Assembly (NCBI RefSeq): GCF_988242995.1
Contig: NZ_OZ547043.1
Length of the DNA stretch: 64,000 nt
Reading direction: 5' to 3' (one strand)
The notes beneath the pieces are model-generated. The model had not been told where the DNA came from and ran no database searches. It saw nothing but the letters and a program-made list of their open reading frames with translations. The position numbers were made by a program, and so were the translations under genes. Positions 3,778 to 64,000 of the stretch are shown here, piece after piece; position 1 is the stretch's first letter, and each line of letters begins with the position of its first letter.

Positions 3778-4257
3778 TCACTGGCTCGCGTCTTCCGAAG
3801 ATGTTTCAAATCGCACAAGGCCAGGCGGCAATGCCACGCTTAAGATGATCGGTTGCCATTCAGACCGGGCAGCAAACTTTCGAGAGCAGCCACGTGCAAT
3901 CAGGAATCCACCAACGCCACCGAGAATCGCACCGCATAATGCTGCAATATCTGAAGCAAAGAGTAGCTGAAATAGTGAAGCGATGAGGAATAATCCCACC
4001 AGCGGCGACATATAAACCAGTAATGCGGAGCTAAGCAGGCTGCCTTCGGCGATTCCTAATTCTACTTTTTGCCCCGGCACTAACGGCTCATCACAGGGTA
4101 CGACAATGGTATGCGTGGTTTGCGGGCCAAGTTTATTCAACACGCGGCTACCGCAACCGGCACGTGAAGCGCAGCTGCTGCATGAGGCTTTAACATCACA
4201 ACTAACCAGCGCCTGCCCGTTTTCCCAGGAGACGACGGTAGCCCACTCTTTGATCAT
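3778..4257 (-). CDS. rseC: Sigma-E regulatory protein RseC
   Basis: 159-aa ORF at the end of the rpoE-rseABC operon; start overlaps rseB stop. Confidence 0.88.
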   Translation of the reverse strand: MIKEWATVVSWENGQALVSCDVKASCSSCASRAGCGSRVLNKLGPQTTHTIVVPCDEPLVPGQKVELGIAEGSLLSSALLVYMSPLVGLFLIASLFQLLFASDIAALCGAILGGVGGFLIARGCSRKFAARSEWQPIILSVALPPGLVRFETSSEDASQ

Positions 4258-51792: not shown

Positions 51793-52006
51793 ACCTGCAC
51801 TGCAATTATTGACCCGCTCCTCACCGCGCCTCCCTCTCCGGCGGCGCGAATGCACATCTTATTGGCTATCACATCCGACACAAATGTTGCCATCCCATTG
51901 CTTAATCGAATAAAAATCAGGCTACATGGGTGCTAAATCTTTAACGATAACGCCATTGAGGCTGGTCATGGCACTCATGAATCTGGTATACTTACCGTTA
52001 CACATT

Positions 52007-52369
52007 GGGGCTGATTCTGGATTCGACGGGATTTGCGAAACCCAAGGTGCATGCCGAGGGGCGGTTGGCCTCGTAAAAAGCCGCAAAAAATAGTCGCAAA
52101 CGACGAAAACTACGCTTTAGCAGCTTAATAACCTGCTTAGAGCCCTCTCTCCCTAGCCTCCGCTCTTAGGACGGGGATCAAGAGAGGTCAAACCCAAAAG
52201 AGATCGCGTGGAAGCCCTGCCTGGGGTTGAAGCGTTAAAACTTAATCAGGCTAGTTTGTTAGTGGCGTGTCCGTCCGCAGCTGGCAAGCGAATGTAAAGA
52301 CTGACTAAGCATGTAGTACCGAGGATGTAGGAATTTCGGACGCGGGTTCAACTCCCGCCAGCTCCACCA
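52007..52369 (+). ncRNA. ssrA: tmRNA (SsrA / 10Sa RNA)
   Basis: 363 nt from GGGGCTGATTCTGGATTCGACGGG to ...CCCGCCAGCTCCACCA; contains the tag reading frame region; tRNA-like 3' end. Confidence 0.96.
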
Positions 52370-52483
52370 CTTGCTCTTCCGGATACGTCCGGAGAAATCC
52401 TGAAAGCCCGCATGGCGCAAGCCCTGTGGGCTTTTTTGTGTCTACCGTTGTCCGAGGATATCCAGCTGAGTCCAGTGATTATT

Positions 52484-52531
52484 GGTATACGTTTAGGTAT
52501 ACGGTAAGATGTATACCTAAATGCGTATACC
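52484..52531. promoter_or_regulatory. Repeat cluster at the int 5' end (GTATAC-containing repeats with an 11-bp inverted repeat); candidate Int arm-type sites or int operator
   Basis: TTTAGGTATAC-N8-GTATACCTAAA perfect inverted repeat (about 52492-52521) abutting the ATG at 52521, plus two more GGTATAC/CGTATACC copies. Confidence 0.45.
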
Positions 52532-53753
52532 AATTCATGAAGGAACGGCCAAAGTGGCAAGAACGACACGTCCCCTGACCAACACTGAAGTTCTGCGCGC
52601 TAAAGCGTTAGAAAAGGATCTAACGTTGCATGATGGCGATGGCCTTTTTCTGCTCGTTAAAACGAACGGTAAGAAATTATGGCGTTTCCGCTACCAAAAG
52701 CCAGTAACAAAACAGCGGACCATGATTAGTTTAGGAACCTTCCCTGCACTATCCTTGGCTGAAATCAGAAATGTGCGAGCTAAGTATCTTTCCTTGTTAG
52801 CCAAGGGGATCGATCCACAAACACACAATGAACAAGTCACACAACAACAACAAATTGCAGTAGAAAGTATTTTTTCAAACGTTGCTAAAAATTGGTTTGC
52901 CATTAAACGCAATAGCGTTACACCTGATTATGCAAAGGATATATGGCGATCCTTAGAGAAGGACATTTTCCCTGCTATCGGAGAGATTCCTGTTCAGGAA
53001 ATAAAAGCACGTATATTAATTGAAGCCCTAGAACCAATTAAGGCCCGCGGTGCACTCGAGACTGTTCGTCGTTTGGTGCAACGTATTAACGAAATTATGA
53101 TCTACGCTGTCAATACCGGATTAATTGAGGCTAATCCTGCGTCAGGTATTGGCATGGCTTTTGATAAACCCAAAAAGCAAAATTTGCCAACGCTGCGGCC
53201 AGAAGAATTACCTAAACTGATGCATTCTCTAGTAATGTCAAACCTGTCTATTCCTACTCGTTGTCTGATCGAATGGCAACTACTGACACTCGTTCGCCCT
53301 TCAGAAGCCTCTGGCGCCCGCTGGGATGAGATCGATTTAGAATCCAAACTTTGGAGAATTCCTGCTGAAAGGATGAAAGCAAAGCGCGAACATATAGTTC
53401 CTTTATCATCTCAAGCTTTAATTATTCTTGAAGTAATGAAACCCATAAGTGCTCATCGTGAACATATATTTCCTAGCAGGAATAACCCTCAAGAACCGAT
53501 GAATAGCCAAACAGCAAATGCAGCATTAAAACGCATAGGGTACGGAGGAAAGTTAGTTGCACATGGACTCCGTTCTATTGCCAGCACTGCATTAAATGAA
53601 GCCGAATTTAATTCTGACATTATTGAATCAGCTCTTGCACATGTTGATAAAAATGAGGTGAGAAGAGCATATAACCGCTCCACTTATCTTGATAAACGTA
53701 AAGAGATGATGGCTTGGTGGGGAAATTTTATATATAAAAATAATTCATTATAA
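52521..53753 (+). CDS. int: Tyrosine recombinase (phage integrase, P4/CP4-57 family)
   Basis: 410-aa ORF with C-terminal catalytic region (HGLRSIAST...LAHVD...RRAYNRSTYLDKR); real start may be the downstream GTG (about 52551, reading VARTTRPLT). Confidence 0.88.
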   Translation: MRIPIHEGTAKVARTTRPLTNTEVLRAKALEKDLTLHDGDGLFLLVKTNGKKLWRFRYQKPVTKQRTMISLGTFPALSLAEIRNVRAKYLSLLAKGIDPQTHNEQVTQQQQIAVESIFSNVAKNWFAIKRNSVTPDYAKDIWRSLEKDIFPAIGEIPVQEIKARILIEALEPIKARGALETVRRLVQRINEIMIYAVNTGLIEANPASGIGMAFDKPKKQNLPTLRPEELPKLMHSLVMSNLSIPTRCLIEWQLLTLVRPSEASGARWDEIDLESKLWRIPAERMKAKREHIVPLSSQALIILEVMKPISAHREHIFPSRNNPQEPMNSQTANAALKRIGYGGKLVAHGLRSIASTALNEAEFNSDIIESALAHVDKNEVRRAYNRSTYLDKRKEMMAWWGNFIYKNNSL

Positions 53754-53764
53754 AAGGTATTACA

Positions 53765-54799
53765 ATGAATATTGATTCTATAAAACTTCATTTACAAAAT
53801 TTTTTCACAAATAATCCAACTGTTCTTATCGGTTCTGGCCTCTCTCTCGGTGAGGGGATTCCAGGTATGAAAACATTGGGAGAACATCTTAATACAACTA
53901 TCCCCAAATTAGTAAGCGGGGATCTTATAAGAGAATGGGGTATCATAAGTTCCAAACTAAATAATGGTATGGGACTTGAAGATGCCATGGCATTTCTTAA
54001 AGATGAAAGTGAACTTATCCCATTAATTATTCAGCACACCGCAGATCTTATTTTAAAGCATGAAAATACTGTAATATGCTCTGTAATCAATGGAGAAAAA
54101 AATCTAGCATTTACATCTTTATTGAATCACTTAACTTTTAATCAAAATGAATTGATAATTATAACTCCAAACTATGATAGACTAATTGAAATAGCATGTG
54201 AAATTGCTGGTCTAGAAATTTCAACAGGATTTATCAATAGTTATCATTGTATAAATAATCCTGAAGTTGAGTTAGATAAATTCAAAATCACCCACTCTAT
54301 CAAAACCACACGAGGTAAATCTACAGTTCAAATTAGAACTAAAAAACACGTTAAAATATTTAAACCTCATGGTAGTCTTGATTGGTTCAAGGCTGACGAT
54401 AAAATTATCAGGACCAGCTTTCAAAATAAACATAAAAGATTAATTATTACACCAGGTACAAGTAAATTCAGAGCTGGATATCAGCAGCCTTTTGATTGGC
54501 ATAGAGAAAAAGCAAACCATTATATCAAAAGAGCAAAATCACTATTAATTATTGGCTATGGGTTTAATGATGAGCAGTTAGAAGTACATTTGAAATCAAA
54601 AATACGTGAAAAAATACCTGTTTTATTAATGACATATGAATTGACATCAAACGCTCAAAAAATATGTGATGATAATCCTTCTATAACATATGTTATTGCA
54701 GAAGGAAACAATTCCATCGTTTGTATCGATGGCATTAAATATAAAATCGAAAAGAATATTTGGTCTTTAAATGAGTTTGTTAAAGAGGTACTTAAATAA
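53765..54799 (+). CDS. SIR2-like NAD+-binding protein (predicted NADase effector); cargo gene 1
   Basis: 344-aa ORF. Gly-rich NAD-binding loop VLIGSGLSLGEG, TPNYD motif (catalytic Asn codon 54170-54172), KPHGS motif (His codon 54367-54369) and second Rossmann motif IIGYGFND. Low GC; stop overlaps next gene's start (TAATG). Confidence 0.8.
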   Translation: MNIDSIKLHLQNFFTNNPTVLIGSGLSLGEGIPGMKTLGEHLNTTIPKLVSGDLIREWGIISSKLNNGMGLEDAMAFLKDESELIPLIIQHTADLILKHENTVICSVINGEKNLAFTSLLNHLTFNQNELIIITPNYDRLIEIACEIAGLEISTGFINSYHCINNPEVELDKFKITHSIKTTRGKSTVQIRTKKHVKIFKPHGSLDWFKADDKIIRTSFQNKHKRLIITPGTSKFRAGYQQPFDWHREKANHYIKRAKSLLIIGYGFNDEQLEVHLKSKIREKIPVLLMTYELTSNAQKICDDNPSITYVIAEGNNSIVCIDGIKYKIEKNIWSLNEFVKEVLK

Positions 54800-56583
54800 T
54801 GGAATATTACGTCATTAACACTGATGAAACATGCTTTATCGGACGAATCGCAAATGTTGATACCGATCGTGCTATTATCATTTCAGAGTCTCCAGAGATC
54901 ATACAAGAACTAACCGTTTTTGACTTGGTTGCTATTGAAGGCAATACCCCCACAGAGTTTCTTGTTGGTATCATTGAAAAAGTAAAACGCTCTATTGGAG
55001 AAATACAAACTATTGATACTGAAGAAAATATTGAAGATGACAGTGAAAAAGATTTCGATAATATCTTCCAAACTTATTCTATCGATCATGATATTCTTCA
55101 AGTAGCTCTTATCGGCACTTTCTGGGAGGTTTACGGGGATAGAAGGAAAATTTTTAAAAGAGGAGCACAATATTTTCCAAAAGTTGAAAAACAAGCATTT
55201 CTTATAAAAAAAGACAGTCTTGAGAAATTAATGTCGGCAGTCGACAATGATACTCCTGATGAGCTAAAACTCATACTAGGCAACTATGGAAATACCAATT
55301 CACGAGCAGTTGCAAATGGGGATAAATTATTTCAGAGACATGCTGCCCTATTGGGGAGTACTGGTTCAGGTAAAAGTTGGACAGTTGCGTCATTACTAGA
55401 ACAAGCCTCAAAATTAAAATACAACAATATTGTACTTTATGATCTTCATGGTGAATACAAAACTTTATCTGATACACATAATAAATCGAACCGCCCGAGC
55501 ATAGCCGATTATTTTAAAATTGCAAGCCCAGGAAATATCGACGATGTAAATAGTATTTATGTACCTCATTGGTTATTAAACAAAGAAGAAATGCTATCAC
55601 TGTTGTTAGATAGAAGCGATAGCAATGCACCTAATCAGGCAGCAAGATTTAGCTACCACGTGAGAGAGCTAAAAAAAGAATACATCACACACAACAGATT
55701 AATACACTTAGAAGATTGTTTGACTGTTGATGCTCCAATACCCTACTCTATCGAGGATCTTATTAGCAGACTGCACGATGATGATCAAGGTATGAAAAAA
55801 GGTACTAATAATAAAGAAATAAAAGGTGATTGGAATGGAAAACTAACAAGATTCATAAGCAGGTTAAGAACAAAAGTAGACGACAAGAGGAACTGTTTTC
55901 TATTCTCAAATAAACCAGAACACAACCAATATGATTGGTTGGAGAAATACGCTTGTAAAATTTTAAAATCAGATAGCACAGATCATGGCATTAAAATAAT
56001 TGATTTTTCTGAAGTTCCTTCAGATATTATGCCTATTGTTATTGGTGTATTGACCAGATTTTTATACAACGTCCAATTTTGGAGATGTGAGACCGAACGA
56101 ACCCCTATAGCATTCGTTTGTGACGAAGCTCATATTTATTTACCCGCTAAGGATACCACTGAGGCTGAAACAAAAATATCCTTATCAATATTCGAGAAAA
56201 TTGCTAAAGAAGGCAGAAAGTACGGAGTATCTTTATTAGTCGTCAGCCAAAGACCTTCTGATGTTAGCAGAACAATACTAAGTCAATGTAATAACATAAT
56301 TTCTCTCAGACTAAGTAATTATAGAGATCAACAGGTAGTTAGTCGGTTAATGCCTGATTCATTGAGTTCATTAACATCCATACTACCAATTCTTGATACT
56401 GGGGAAGCAATAGTTCTTGGCGACTCTGTTCTATTACCAGCTAGAATAAAATTGAATCCACCAACACTCAAGCCCGATAGCGCAACCAGAGCTTTTTGGA
56501 ATGAGTGGGGGGCAATTGAAGCAAAAGAAATCTCTATAGCAAATGCTGTTGAATCACTCAGGAGACAATCTCGTAATCGCTAA
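54799..56583 (+). CDS. HerA/FtsK-type ATPase; cargo gene 2
   Basis: 594-aa ORF. Walker A GSTGSGKS (Lys codon 55372-55374), Walker B FVCDEAH (56122-56133), and KEGRKYGVSLLVVSQRP arginine-finger region typical of HerA. Translationally coupled to the SIR2-like gene. Confidence 0.8.
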   Translation: MEYYVINTDETCFIGRIANVDTDRAIIISESPEIIQELTVFDLVAIEGNTPTEFLVGIIEKVKRSIGEIQTIDTEENIEDDSEKDFDNIFQTYSIDHDILQVALIGTFWEVYGDRRKIFKRGAQYFPKVEKQAFLIKKDSLEKLMSAVDNDTPDELKLILGNYGNTNSRAVANGDKLFQRHAALLGSTGSGKSWTVASLLEQASKLKYNNIVLYDLHGEYKTLSDTHNKSNRPSIADYFKIASPGNIDDVNSIYVPHWLLNKEEMLSLLLDRSDSNAPNQAARFSYHVRELKKEYITHNRLIHLEDCLTVDAPIPYSIEDLISRLHDDDQGMKKGTNNKEIKGDWNGKLTRFISRLRTKVDDKRNCFLFSNKPEHNQYDWLEKYACKILKSDSTDHGIKIIDFSEVPSDIMPIVIGVLTRFLYNVQFWRCETERTPIAFVCDEAHIYLPAKDTTEAETKISLSIFEKIAKEGRKYGVSLLVVSQRPSDVSRTILSQCNNIISLRLSNYRDQQVVSRLMPDSLSSLTSILPILDTGEAIVLGDSVLLPARIKLNPPTLKPDSATRAFWNEWGAIEAKEISIANAVESLRRQSRNR

Positions 56584-63649: not shown

Positions 63650-63975
63650 TCCCTGAATCCCCCGAAGGTGAACAATCCAGTGTTCACCCTTCACCGTATA
63701 TTCACCCGTTATCACACTGAAATTAAAAGAGAAAAACGAAAGGTGAACAGTGTGAACAATCAAATCAAAAAAAACTTTTTTTCTTCCTGTGTGATTTTCA
63801 GCACGGGAAATTAATCCCCTGCACAAGTCACACCGGCAGAATGCCGGAGGTGAAGAATCGAATGTTCACCCTTCACCCATTATTCACCACCTATCACTCT
63901 GAAATAAAAGGAGAAAACAGAAAGGTGAACAGTGTGAACAGTTCTTTCGAAAAAAAATTTTTTTCCTGTACGATA
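63650..63975. repeat. crr-like cis replication region: two direct repeats of about 130 bp, period about 185 bp, each carrying TGTTCACC/GGTGAACA iterons
   Basis: Repeat 1 (about 63660-63790) and repeat 2 (about 63845-63970) align nearly base for base (ggtgaacaatccagtgttcaccc... versus ggtgaagaatcgaatgttcaccc...); located just 3' of alpha. Confidence 0.75.
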
Positions 63976-64000
63976 TAGCATCAATCCAAGTAAAAATGCG

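What the first reader, a model, noticed from the sequence alone, without database searches (positions are those of the whole stretch)
52484..52531. Perfect 11-bp inverted repeat and GTATAC-core repeats overlapping the integrase start
TTTAGGTATAC-N8-GTATACCTAAA with two further GTATAC-core copies lies at or around the int ATG. Such a structure could be an operator for int autoregulation or arm-type Int binding sites of attL. It also casts doubt on which start codon int uses (ATG 52521 versus GTG about 52551).
Basis: seen in the sequence. Interest (0 to 1): 0.35.

Follow-up and report, generated by a model that had tools for sequence, protein, structure and literature searches.

The report
Integrase arm-binding sites of P4-like satellite
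The palindrome is the cluster of integrase "arm" binding sites of a P4-like satellite prophage inserted at the tmRNA gene, and the integrase promoter sits inside it; this is a well-known arrangement, seen here with a new recognition sequence.

Summary
The repeat is real and larger than reported. Two nested perfect 11-bp inverted repeats give four sites (ATTGGTATACG, TTTAGGTATAC, and their two inverted copies) at 52481-52534, about 110 bp after the tmRNA 3' end.

The element is essentially phage satellite P4 (alpha 99% and Vis 98% identical) with a swapped int-attP module (Int 36% identical, inserted at ssrA instead of leuX). The GenBank record of P4 annotates "attP arm sequence repeats" in the same layout, with a different motif (GGGGGCAT). 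K-12 CP4-57 intA has the same layout with a third motif (TAGGCCCA).

A second 12-bp-phased direct pair lies on the other arm, always 84 bp from the core, in 26 related loci. In relatives carrying GGTACAC, all four int-proximal sites change together, and distal pairs assigned to that lineage carry the same change. The motif follows Int, not Vis.

A conserved promoter-like signal is embedded in the cluster: TTGGTA, 17 bp, TAnnAT.

The ATG at 52521 is not conserved (3 of 60 sequences). The start is GTG 52554, which is GTG, ATG or TTG in all relatives and is the start chosen by PGAP.

Best reading: Int arm-type sites of attL that also act as the operator for int autorepression. This is a new member of a known kind and of low interest. 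Binding and repression have not been tested.

The parts
52357..52369 (+). attL core region: the 3' end of ssrA (GCCAGCTCCACCA), shared with attR cores of related elements
   Evidence: tmRNA at 52007-52369. Most E. coli genomes match the query only up to about 52372. attR in L007 reads TTCAAACTCCGCCAGCTCCACCA.
52377..52402 (+). Three TCC boxes at exact 10-bp phasing (TCC at 52378, 52388, 52398). Candidate Vis (excisionase) box next to the core. Not part of the reported repeat.
   Evidence: Sequence and the repeat finder I2. P4 has the same phased boxes at the same place. Excisionase sites are typically direct repeats one helical turn apart (PMC7498355).
52403..52440 (+). Terminator hairpin plus T-run carried by the element's arm. 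It replaces the ssrA terminator.
   Evidence: (I3). Conserved in relatives and homologous in CP4-57.
52450..52476 (+). Second set of three TCC boxes at 10-bp phasing (TCC at 52451, 52461, 52471). Candidate Vis box next to the arm sites.
   Evidence: These columns are 97-100% conserved in 60 unique relatives. Present in P4 and CP4-57.
52481..52491 (+). Arm-type site 1 (ATTGGTATACG). Contains the predicted -35 hexamer TTGGTA at 52482-52487.
52492..52502 (+). Arm-type site 2 (TTTAGGTATAC), 12 bp after site 1
52505..52510 (+). Predicted -10 hexamer of the int promoter (TAAGAT) in the 8-bp spacer between sites 2 and 3. The transcription start is predicted near 52517.
   Evidence: This is the only + strand pair of hexamers with at least 8 of 12 matches in 52400-52560. 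In 59 relatives the hexamer is TAGGAT, TAAGAT, TATAAT, TAGAAT, TAAAAT or TATACT, with T1, A2 and T6 invariant and a fixed 17-bp spacer.
52511..52521 (-). Arm-type site 3 (inverted, GTATACCTAAA as read on the + strand). It is the least conserved of the four. Its last A starts the non-conserved ATG at 52521.
52524..52534 (-). Arm-type site 4 (inverted, CGTATACCAAT as read on the + strand)
   Evidence: 98-100% conserved
52541..52545 (+). Shine-Dalgarno sequence AAGGA, 8 nt before the start codon
   Evidence: Columns 88-98% conserved
52554..53753 (+). int: P4-family tyrosine integrase, 399 aa, starting at GTG 52554. It has an N-terminal arm-DNA-binding domain.
   Evidence: Pfam PF13356, PF22022 and PF00589. 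PGAP start in five E. coli genomes. The start column is G 38, A 21, T 1. 36% identical to P4 Int.

Best explanation
The four 11-bp GGTATAC sites are the int-proximal arm-type binding sites of the attachment site of a P4-like satellite prophage integrated at the 3' end of ssrA.

Proposed mechanism (inferred): the N-terminal arm-binding domain of the element's integrase binds these sites together with a phased pair of the same motif on the other arm. That pair lies next to alpha/crr, about 27 bp beyond the window end. The catalytic domain binds the core in the tmRNA 3' end, so that the recombination complexes for integration and excision can assemble.

The int promoter is embedded in the cluster, with its -35 in site 1, its -10 between sites 2 and 3, and its start in site 3. 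The same Int occupancy should therefore shut off int transcription. This negative autoregulation is reported for P4 Pint and for KplE1 intS.

Shown here: the anatomy, the two-arm distribution, the fixed spacing, the conservation, the co-variation with the Int lineage, and the start codon. Inferred: binding by Int, the promoter, and the repression.
For: 1. The element is P4 with a swapped int-att module. Alpha is 99% and Vis 98% identical to P4, Int only 36%. The gene order is int, hotspot, psu, delta, sid, vis, alpha.

2. P4 record X51522 annotates 12-bp 'attP arm sequence repeat's: two direct, 53 bp, core, 112 bp, two direct, then one inverted copy that overlaps the annotated int ATG. The geometry here matches: a 12-bp-phased distal pair 84 bp from CCAGC and about 110 bp from the core to site 1.

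3. The same motif occurs as ATTGGTATACG ATTAGGTATAC between alpha and the attR core in three E. coli genomes and in 23 IMG/VR loci. It is always on the + strand and always at offset 84, across 20 distinct spacers that are 74% A+T and as little as 45% identical.

4. In 60 unique relatives, sites 1, 2 and 4 are 88-100% conserved (most columns 97-100%; the low columns are the motif-variant positions), while the spacers vary.

5. The motif follows Int, not Vis. P4 (Vis 98%, Int 36%) has GGGGGCAT. Loci with Vis at 54-59% and Int at 83-85% keep GGTATAC. CP4-57 IntA (49% identical) has TAGGCCCA in the same layout. The Int lineage at 77-80% identity has GGTACAC at all four proximal sites; distal pairs assigned to that lineage (L086, and the upstream element in L056) also carry it, although no single locus shows both arms.

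6. Int carries the Pfam Arm-DNA-bind_3 domain, E = 1.4e-21.

7. TTGGTA, 17 bp, TAnnAT is invariant in 59 of 59 relatives, with -10 variants that include the consensus TATAAT.

8. Literature: P4 Int represses its own promoter, Vis also represses it, and the region holds an IHF site (PMC7286903). Arm-site-mediated autorepression is shown for intS and predicted for integrase genes that follow a tRNA gene (PMC2951348).
Against: - There is no binding or expression data for this element.
- The sigma-70 scan at its default threshold (9 of 12) found no promoter. The proposed one matches only 8 of 12.
- Site 3 is degenerate in many relatives, so the perfect inner palindrome itself is not under strong selection.
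- Co-variation of motif and Int is confounded by shared ancestry of the whole int-att module.
- The distal pair of this particular genome lies outside the window and was seen only in a nearly identical genome.
Confidence: 0.82

Rival explanations
1. The sites are an operator or recombination sites for the excisionase Vis, or for another element-encoded repressor, rather than for Int.
For: Vis represses Pint and binds attP DNA in P4 (PMC7286903, PMC2603039). The cluster sits on the predicted promoter.
Against: Vis is 98% identical to P4 Vis, yet the motif is completely different from P4's. Relatives whose Vis is only 54-59% identical keep GGTATAC. Excisionase sites are typically direct repeats at about 10-bp phasing (PMC7498355); here the spacing is 12 to 14 bp and the orientation is mixed. 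A better Vis candidate exists nearby: six TCC boxes at 10-bp phasing, shared with P4 and CP4-57.
Confidence: 0.07
2. The palindrome works as a nucleic-acid structure. It could be an RNA hairpin in ssrA read-through or int leader transcripts that blocks transcription, translation or stability, or a DNA cruciform.
For: As RNA it folds to -30.1 kcal/mol, z = -6.98. Symmetric T-to-C / A-to-G changes keep pairing in 5 sequences. In P4, short 5' int transcripts and RNA binding by Vis are reported (Piazzolla 2006, from memory; RNA binding by Vis is also stated in PMC2603039).
Against: The same substitution also appears in distal direct pairs assigned to the GGTACAC lineage, which cannot form a hairpin. 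The inner stem is often broken in relatives, for example 16 of 40 unpaired at one pair. P4 and CP4-57 have only one inverted copy, with 15 to 17-bp spacers. There is no T-run after the stem, and an upstream terminator already ends ssrA. The predicted transcription start lies inside the palindrome, so the int mRNA would hold only its right half. There is no Rfam match.
Confidence: 0.06
3. A chance or neutral repeat with no function.
For: None beyond the low complexity of the A+T-rich motif.
Against: The cluster expectation is about 4e-7. The sites are conserved in 60 unique relatives while the spacers vary. A second copy pair sits at a fixed offset on the other arm.
Confidence: 0.01

Closest known systems
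attP arm sequence repeats and Pint of satellite phage P4 (Pierson & Kahn 1987; GenBank X51522; Piazzolla et al. 2006)
   Same: - The rest of the element is the same (alpha 99%, Vis 98%, psu 98%).
- There is a 12-bp tandem direct pair on each arm.
- The distances to the core are nearly the same (53 and 112 bp in P4, against about 55-60 and about 110 bp here).
- An inverted copy lies just before int and contains a spurious or alternative upstream ATG.
- Phased TCC boxes lie between the core and the sites.
   Different: - The motif is GGTATAC instead of GGGGGCAT.
- Int is only 36% identical.
- Integration is at ssrA instead of leuX.
- There are two inverted copies rather than one.
- The spacer before the inverted copies is 8 bp rather than 15, so the -35 falls in site 1 rather than site 2.
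attL / intA region of cryptic prophage CP4-57 of E. coli K-12 (also at ssrA)
   Same: - Same integration site.
- Homologous replacement terminator and TCC boxes.
- TTAGGCCCATTG ATAGGCCCAACG at 12-bp phasing, then 17 bp, then the inverted CGTTGGGCCTAA just before intA.
- A promoter-like TTGATA-17-TATTGT overlaps the sites.
- IntA starts MARKTKPLT, like MARTTRPLT here.
   Different: - A different motif.
- Int about 49% identical (phi467 intA).
- One inverted copy.
- A different element type, not a complete P4 satellite.
attL-embedded intS promoter of KplE1 (Panis et al. 2010, PMC2951348) and lambda-type arm sites
   Same: The integrase gene follows the tRNA-type gene in the same orientation, the promoter lies inside attL, and the arm-type and excisionase sites overlap the -35 and -10. 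Negative autoregulation has been shown experimentally.
   Different: An unrelated integrase subfamily and motif. The sites there are direct P' repeats, not a nested palindrome.

Membership tests
Arm-type binding sites of a heterobivalent tyrosine integrase (lambda/P4 paradigm) | The integrase has a separate N-terminal arm-DNA-binding domain | tested here: met
   PF13356 Arm-DNA-bind_3, residues 8-93, E = 1.4e-21
Arm-type binding sites of a heterobivalent tyrosine integrase (lambda/P4 paradigm) | A repeated motif, different from the core, is present on both sides of the core in attP (that is, in both attL and attR) | tested here: met
   Four sites in attL. A phased pair lies before the attR core in L005, L007, L008 and 23 IMG/VR loci. 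An intact attP-like junction is seen in L048. The attR copy of this genome lies just outside the window.
Arm-type binding sites of a heterobivalent tyrosine integrase (lambda/P4 paradigm) | Fixed distance and phasing of the sites relative to the core, despite divergent intervening DNA | tested here: met
   The distal offset is 84 bp in 26 of 26 loci, over spacers as little as 45% identical. The proximal offset is 126 bp in 47 loci or 136 bp in 11 loci, one helical turn apart.
Arm-type binding sites of a heterobivalent tyrosine integrase (lambda/P4 paradigm) | The motif changes with the integrase lineage, not with other element proteins | tested here: met
   Caveat: int and att are inherited as one module, so this is correlation.
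Arm-type binding sites of a heterobivalent tyrosine integrase (lambda/P4 paradigm) | Direct, sequence-specific binding by the Int N-terminal domain | not testable with these tools
   Needs EMSA or footprinting
P4 attP arm repeats (X51522 annotation) | The same layout in a P4 genome: tandem 12-bp pairs on both arms and an inverted copy at the int start | tested here: met
P4 attP arm repeats (X51522 annotation) | Same recognition sequence and integrase as P4 | tested here: not met
   GGTATAC against GGGGGCAT; Int 36% identical. This is a different specificity class of the same architecture.
Autoregulated integrase promoter inside attL (P4 Pint, KplE1 PintS) | Promoter hexamers overlapped by the Int sites | tested here: inconclusive
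   The default scan found none. The relaxed scan gives a single candidate, TTGGTA-17-TAAGAT, whose T1, A2, T6 and spacer length are invariant in 59 relatives. The transcription start is not mapped.
Autoregulated integrase promoter inside attL (P4 Pint, KplE1 PintS) | Int lowers transcription from the promoter | not testable with these tools
   Reported for P4 and intS only
Excisionase (RDF/Vis) binding boxes | Direct repeats spaced one helical turn apart, conserved together with the RDF | tested here: not met
   The GGTATAC sites are spaced 12 to 14 bp apart, have mixed orientation, and do not track Vis. The neighbouring TCC boxes do fit this description.
Intrinsic terminator or structured RNA element | A G+C-rich stem followed by a T-run, or a match to a known RNA family | tested here: not met
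   The terminator scan does not report it. Only sub-threshold microRNA-like hits appear in Rfam.

The most novel reading that the evidence does not exclude
The doubled inverted copies, which make a perfect four-site nested palindrome wrapped around the promoter, may not be needed for recombination. They could instead be a dedicated, tighter autorepression lock: an Int tetramer or a DNA loop over the -35, -10 and +1 positions, or a hairpin in read-through RNA. That would distinguish this ssrA lineage from P4 and CP4-57, which have a single inverted copy. The number of inverted copies varies in relatives (site 3 is often degenerate, and L087 has three copies), so autorepression strength might be evolutionarily tuned.
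Probability: 0.12. Interest if true: 0.4.

Novelty: new member of a known kind. Interest (0 to 1): 0.2.

Why it matters
The result mainly helps annotation.
- It fixes the int start at GTG 52554 rather than the longest ORF.
- It defines attL, and by extension attP, of a common int-att module at ssrA. An attL/int region of this type (at least 80% of a 261-bp query) was found in 388 of 5426 complete E. coli genomes; the elements examined were P4-like satellites that ferry defence systems, here SIR2 and HerA.
- It gives a natural series of arm-site specificities (GGGGGCAT, TAGGCCCA, GGTATAC, GGTACAC) on a constant scaffold. This series could be used to map how the PF13356 arm-binding domain reads DNA, or to design orthogonal integration modules.

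It does not reveal a new mechanism.

Tried and rejected
- **attR in the window.** I searched the window for a second copy of the ssrA 3' end and for more GGTATAC sites. None were found, because the element's right end lies about 27 bp beyond base 64000.
- **Promoter scan.** The default sigma-70 scan found no promoter. I replaced it with a relaxed scan plus conservation.
- **IMG/VR scan.** The repeat succeeded.
- **Primary papers.** The P4 papers of Piazzolla 2006 and Cali 2004 are not in the held library, so their content is cited through open papers that cite them or marked as recalled.
- **Hairpin covariation.** The test cannot separate a hairpin from symmetric protein sites. It was decided instead by the distal direct pair and by the degenerate site 3.
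- **Specificity residues.** Nineteen residues segregate in the Int N-terminal domain between the GTATAC and GTACAC lineages. This is too confounded by phylogeny to name specificity residues.
- **IHF sites.** They were inspected only by eye and no claim is made.
- **Not used.** The genome-contig scan, the metagenome scan and structure prediction were not needed.

Full report
**What is there.** The window carries smpB and then ssrA (tmRNA, 52007-52369). After ssrA comes an ORF for a tyrosine integrase, and then SIR2-like and HerA-like genes.

Between ssrA and int the reported repeat is present. TTTAGGTATAC (52492-52502) and GTATACCTAAA (52511-52521) form a perfect 11-bp inverted repeat with an 8-bp spacer. 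The two "further copies" form a second perfect 11-bp inverted repeat, ATTGGTATACG (52481-52491) and CGTATACCAAT (52524-52534). The feature is therefore four 11-bp sites: two direct at 12-bp spacing, then two inverted.

Four of the six GGTATAC heptamers in the 64-kb window lie within 48 bp. No Markov simulation gave more than two in 60 bp, and the analytic expectation is about 4e-7.

**What the element is.** A nearly identical E. coli genome (L005, NZ_CP099721) shows the gene order ssrA, int, SIR2, HerA, psu, delta, sid, vis, icd-like, alpha, followed by host genes.

Against phage satellite P4 (X51522), alpha is 99%, Vis 98% and psu 98% identical, but Int is only 36% identical. This is therefore P4 with a swapped int-att module that targets ssrA instead of leuX. 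It carries a SIR2/HerA pair in the known P4 defence hotspot between int and psu (literature: PMC9122126). Exchange of integrases among P4-like satellites is documented (PMC8628076).

**Comparison with P4 itself.** The P4 record annotates 12-bp "attP arm sequence repeat"s. Read in the int direction, they are: two direct copies (4174-4151), 53 bp, the core (4097-4078), 112 bp, two direct copies (CATTGGGGGCAT AATTGGGGGCAT, 3965-3942), 15 bp, and one inverted copy (ATGTGCCCCCAA, 3926-3915). The inverted copy contains the annotated long int ATG. A second ATG right after it gives MKLNARQ.

The layout here matches in several respects:
- tandem sites at 12-bp phasing
- about 110 bp from the core
- an inverted copy that happens to carry an upstream ATG
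- a second phased pair on the other arm

Only the motif differs, GGTATAC against GGGGGCAT.

**The other arm.** In L005, ATTGGTATACG ATTAGGTATAC lies between alpha/crr and a degenerate copy of the ssrA 3' end, which is the attR core. The window ends about 27 bp before this point, which explains why the window alone shows no second cluster.

Two further E. coli satellites with different cargo (L007, L008) have the same pair.

An IMG/VR scan with Int returned 80 loci with Int 77-85% identical. Almost all loci with enough flanking sequence also encode P4-type alpha, Vis or Psu homologues. In 26 loci the distal pair is present, always on the + strand and always 84 bp from CCAGC. This holds although the intervening 65 bp exist in 20 versions that are 74% A+T and as little as 45% identical.

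The proximal cluster lies 126 bp (47 loci) or 136 bp (11 loci) from the core, one helical turn apart. L048 contains an uninterrupted junction of distal pair, core and proximal cluster, which is the attP arrangement.

**Conservation and co-variation.** In 60 unique upstream regions, sites 1, 2 and 4 are 88-100% conserved (most columns 97-100%; the low columns are the positions where motif variants differ), while the spacers vary freely. Site 3 is the least conserved.

A lineage with Int at 77-80% identity has GGTACAC instead of GGTATAC at all four proximal sites. The distal pairs assigned to this lineage, in L086 and in the upstream element of L056, carry GGTACAC too. No single locus shows both arms of this lineage. 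In L086 the assignment rests on its Int identity of 77%.

The motif tracks Int and not Vis:
- P4 has Vis 98% and Int 36% identical, and a different motif.
- Loci with Vis at 54-59% and Int at 83-85% identity keep the same motif.
- K-12 CP4-57, also at ssrA, has TTAGGCCCATTG ATAGGCCCAACG, then 17 bp, then the inverted CGTTGGGCCTAA just before intA. That is a third motif in the same layout.

Int carries the Pfam arm-DNA-binding domain PF13356. Together these results meet every in-silico criterion for arm-type Int sites. Direct binding remains untested.

**Promoter and autoregulation.** The default promoter scan found nothing. A relaxed scan gives a single + strand candidate in 52400-52560: TTGGTA (52482-52487, inside site 1), 17 bp, TAAGAT (52505-52510, in the spacer between sites 2 and 3).

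In 59 relatives the -35 and the 17-bp spacing are invariant. The -10 reads TAGGAT, TAAGAT, TATAAT, TAGAAT, TAAAAT or TATACT. T1, A2 and T6 never change, although the two middle positions vary. That is the signature of a -10 element. The transcription start would fall near 52517, inside site 3.

Int bound to the sites would occlude the promoter. Open papers state that P4 Int represses its own promoter, that Vis also represses it, and that the region holds an IHF site (PMC7286903). Arm-site-dependent autorepression is shown for KplE1 intS and predicted generally for integrase genes that follow a tRNA gene (PMC2951348). This step is inference for the present element.

**Start codon.**
- The T of the ATG at 52521 is present in only 3 of 60 relatives. 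The others have AAG, ACG, AGG or a deletion.
- The column at 52554 is G in 38, A in 21 and T in 1, so it is always a start codon. It is followed by the invariant TGGC and preceded by a conserved AAGGA.
- PGAP uses this start in five genomes.
- The arm-binding domain begins at residue 8.
- IntA of K-12 starts at the homologous codon.

The real start is therefore GTG 52554. The 410-aa ORF from 52521 is an accident of this lineage. The P4 record has the same ambiguity.

**Rivals.**
- *A Vis operator* is unlikely, because the motif does not follow Vis and lacks the 10-bp direct-repeat pattern typical of excisionase sites (PMC7498355). Six TCC boxes at exact 10-bp phasing (52377-52402 and 52450-52476) do fit that pattern. 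They are conserved in the relatives and present in P4 and CP4-57. I recall that Cali et al. 2004 reported two Vis boxes between the core and int, but I could not read that paper.
- *A structural RNA or DNA hairpin* is energetically possible (-30.1 kcal/mol). Several observations argue against it. The concerted substitution also affects distal direct pairs. The inner stem is often broken in relatives. P4 and CP4-57 have only one inverted copy. There is no T-run and no Rfam match.
- *Chance* is excluded.

**Verdict.** The feature belongs to a kind described for P4 in 1987. What is new is the recognition sequence, the second inverted copy, and the comparative proof of site positions, the promoter and the start codon for this common ssrA-type module. 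An attL/int region of this type (at least 80% of a 261-bp query) occurs in 388 of 5426 complete E. coli genomes. This is a new member of a known kind and of low interest.

Noticed in passing
window 52377-52402 and 52450-52476: Two sets of three TCC boxes (RTCCRG) at exact 10-bp phasing flank the terminator hairpin between the core and the arm sites. They are 97-100% conserved in 60 relatives and present at the same places in P4 and CP4-57. They are candidate binding boxes for Vis/AlpA excisionase.
   Followed up: partly
window 52403-52440: The element's arm carries a terminator hairpin and T-run right after the tmRNA 3' end. It is homologous to the one in K-12 CP4-57, so the inserted element supplies the ssrA terminator.
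   Followed up: partly
window 53765-56583: A SIR2-like gene (344 aa) and a HerA/DUF87 ATPase gene (594 aa) sit in the P4 hotspot between int and psu. Other ssrA-type satellites carry a restriction endonuclease or hypothetical genes at this position instead (L007, L008).
   Followed up: partly
L005 31766-31790 (about 64100 in window coordinates, outside the window): The attR core of the nearly identical genome lacks 6 bp (TCCACC) compared with L007, and also differs from the ssrA 3' end. The prophage may no longer be able to excise precisely.
   Followed up: no
L046 19892-20168; L056 9711-9990: These are tandem arrays of two satellites at ssrA with different arm-site types (GGTATAC next to GGTACAC). 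Across the junction, the arm type changes between the two elements.
   Followed up: partly
L087 199-270: One relative has three inverted copies (GTGTACCAAAAAC repeated) instead of two. Another relative has lost one direct copy. The number of sites around the promoter is evolutionarily variable.
   Followed up: no
window 63660-63960 (L005 31320-31620): Two copies of a repeat of roughly 120-180 bp, rich in GGTGAACA/TGTTCACC octamers, lie after alpha. These correspond to the P4 crr region with alpha-binding type 1 repeats.
   Followed up: no
window 51985-51991: A single GGTATAC lies 16 bp upstream of the mature tmRNA 5' end in host DNA. It is probably chance: the shuffle-based expectation is 3.2 and a base-composition estimate is 7.4 such heptamers per window.
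   Followed up: no
L006 (P4 X51522) 3915-3926: The GenBank record of P4 starts int at an ATG that lies inside the inverted arm repeat. A second ATG 12 nt downstream aligns with the N-termini of the other integrases. This is the same annotation ambiguity as in the window.
   Followed up: partly
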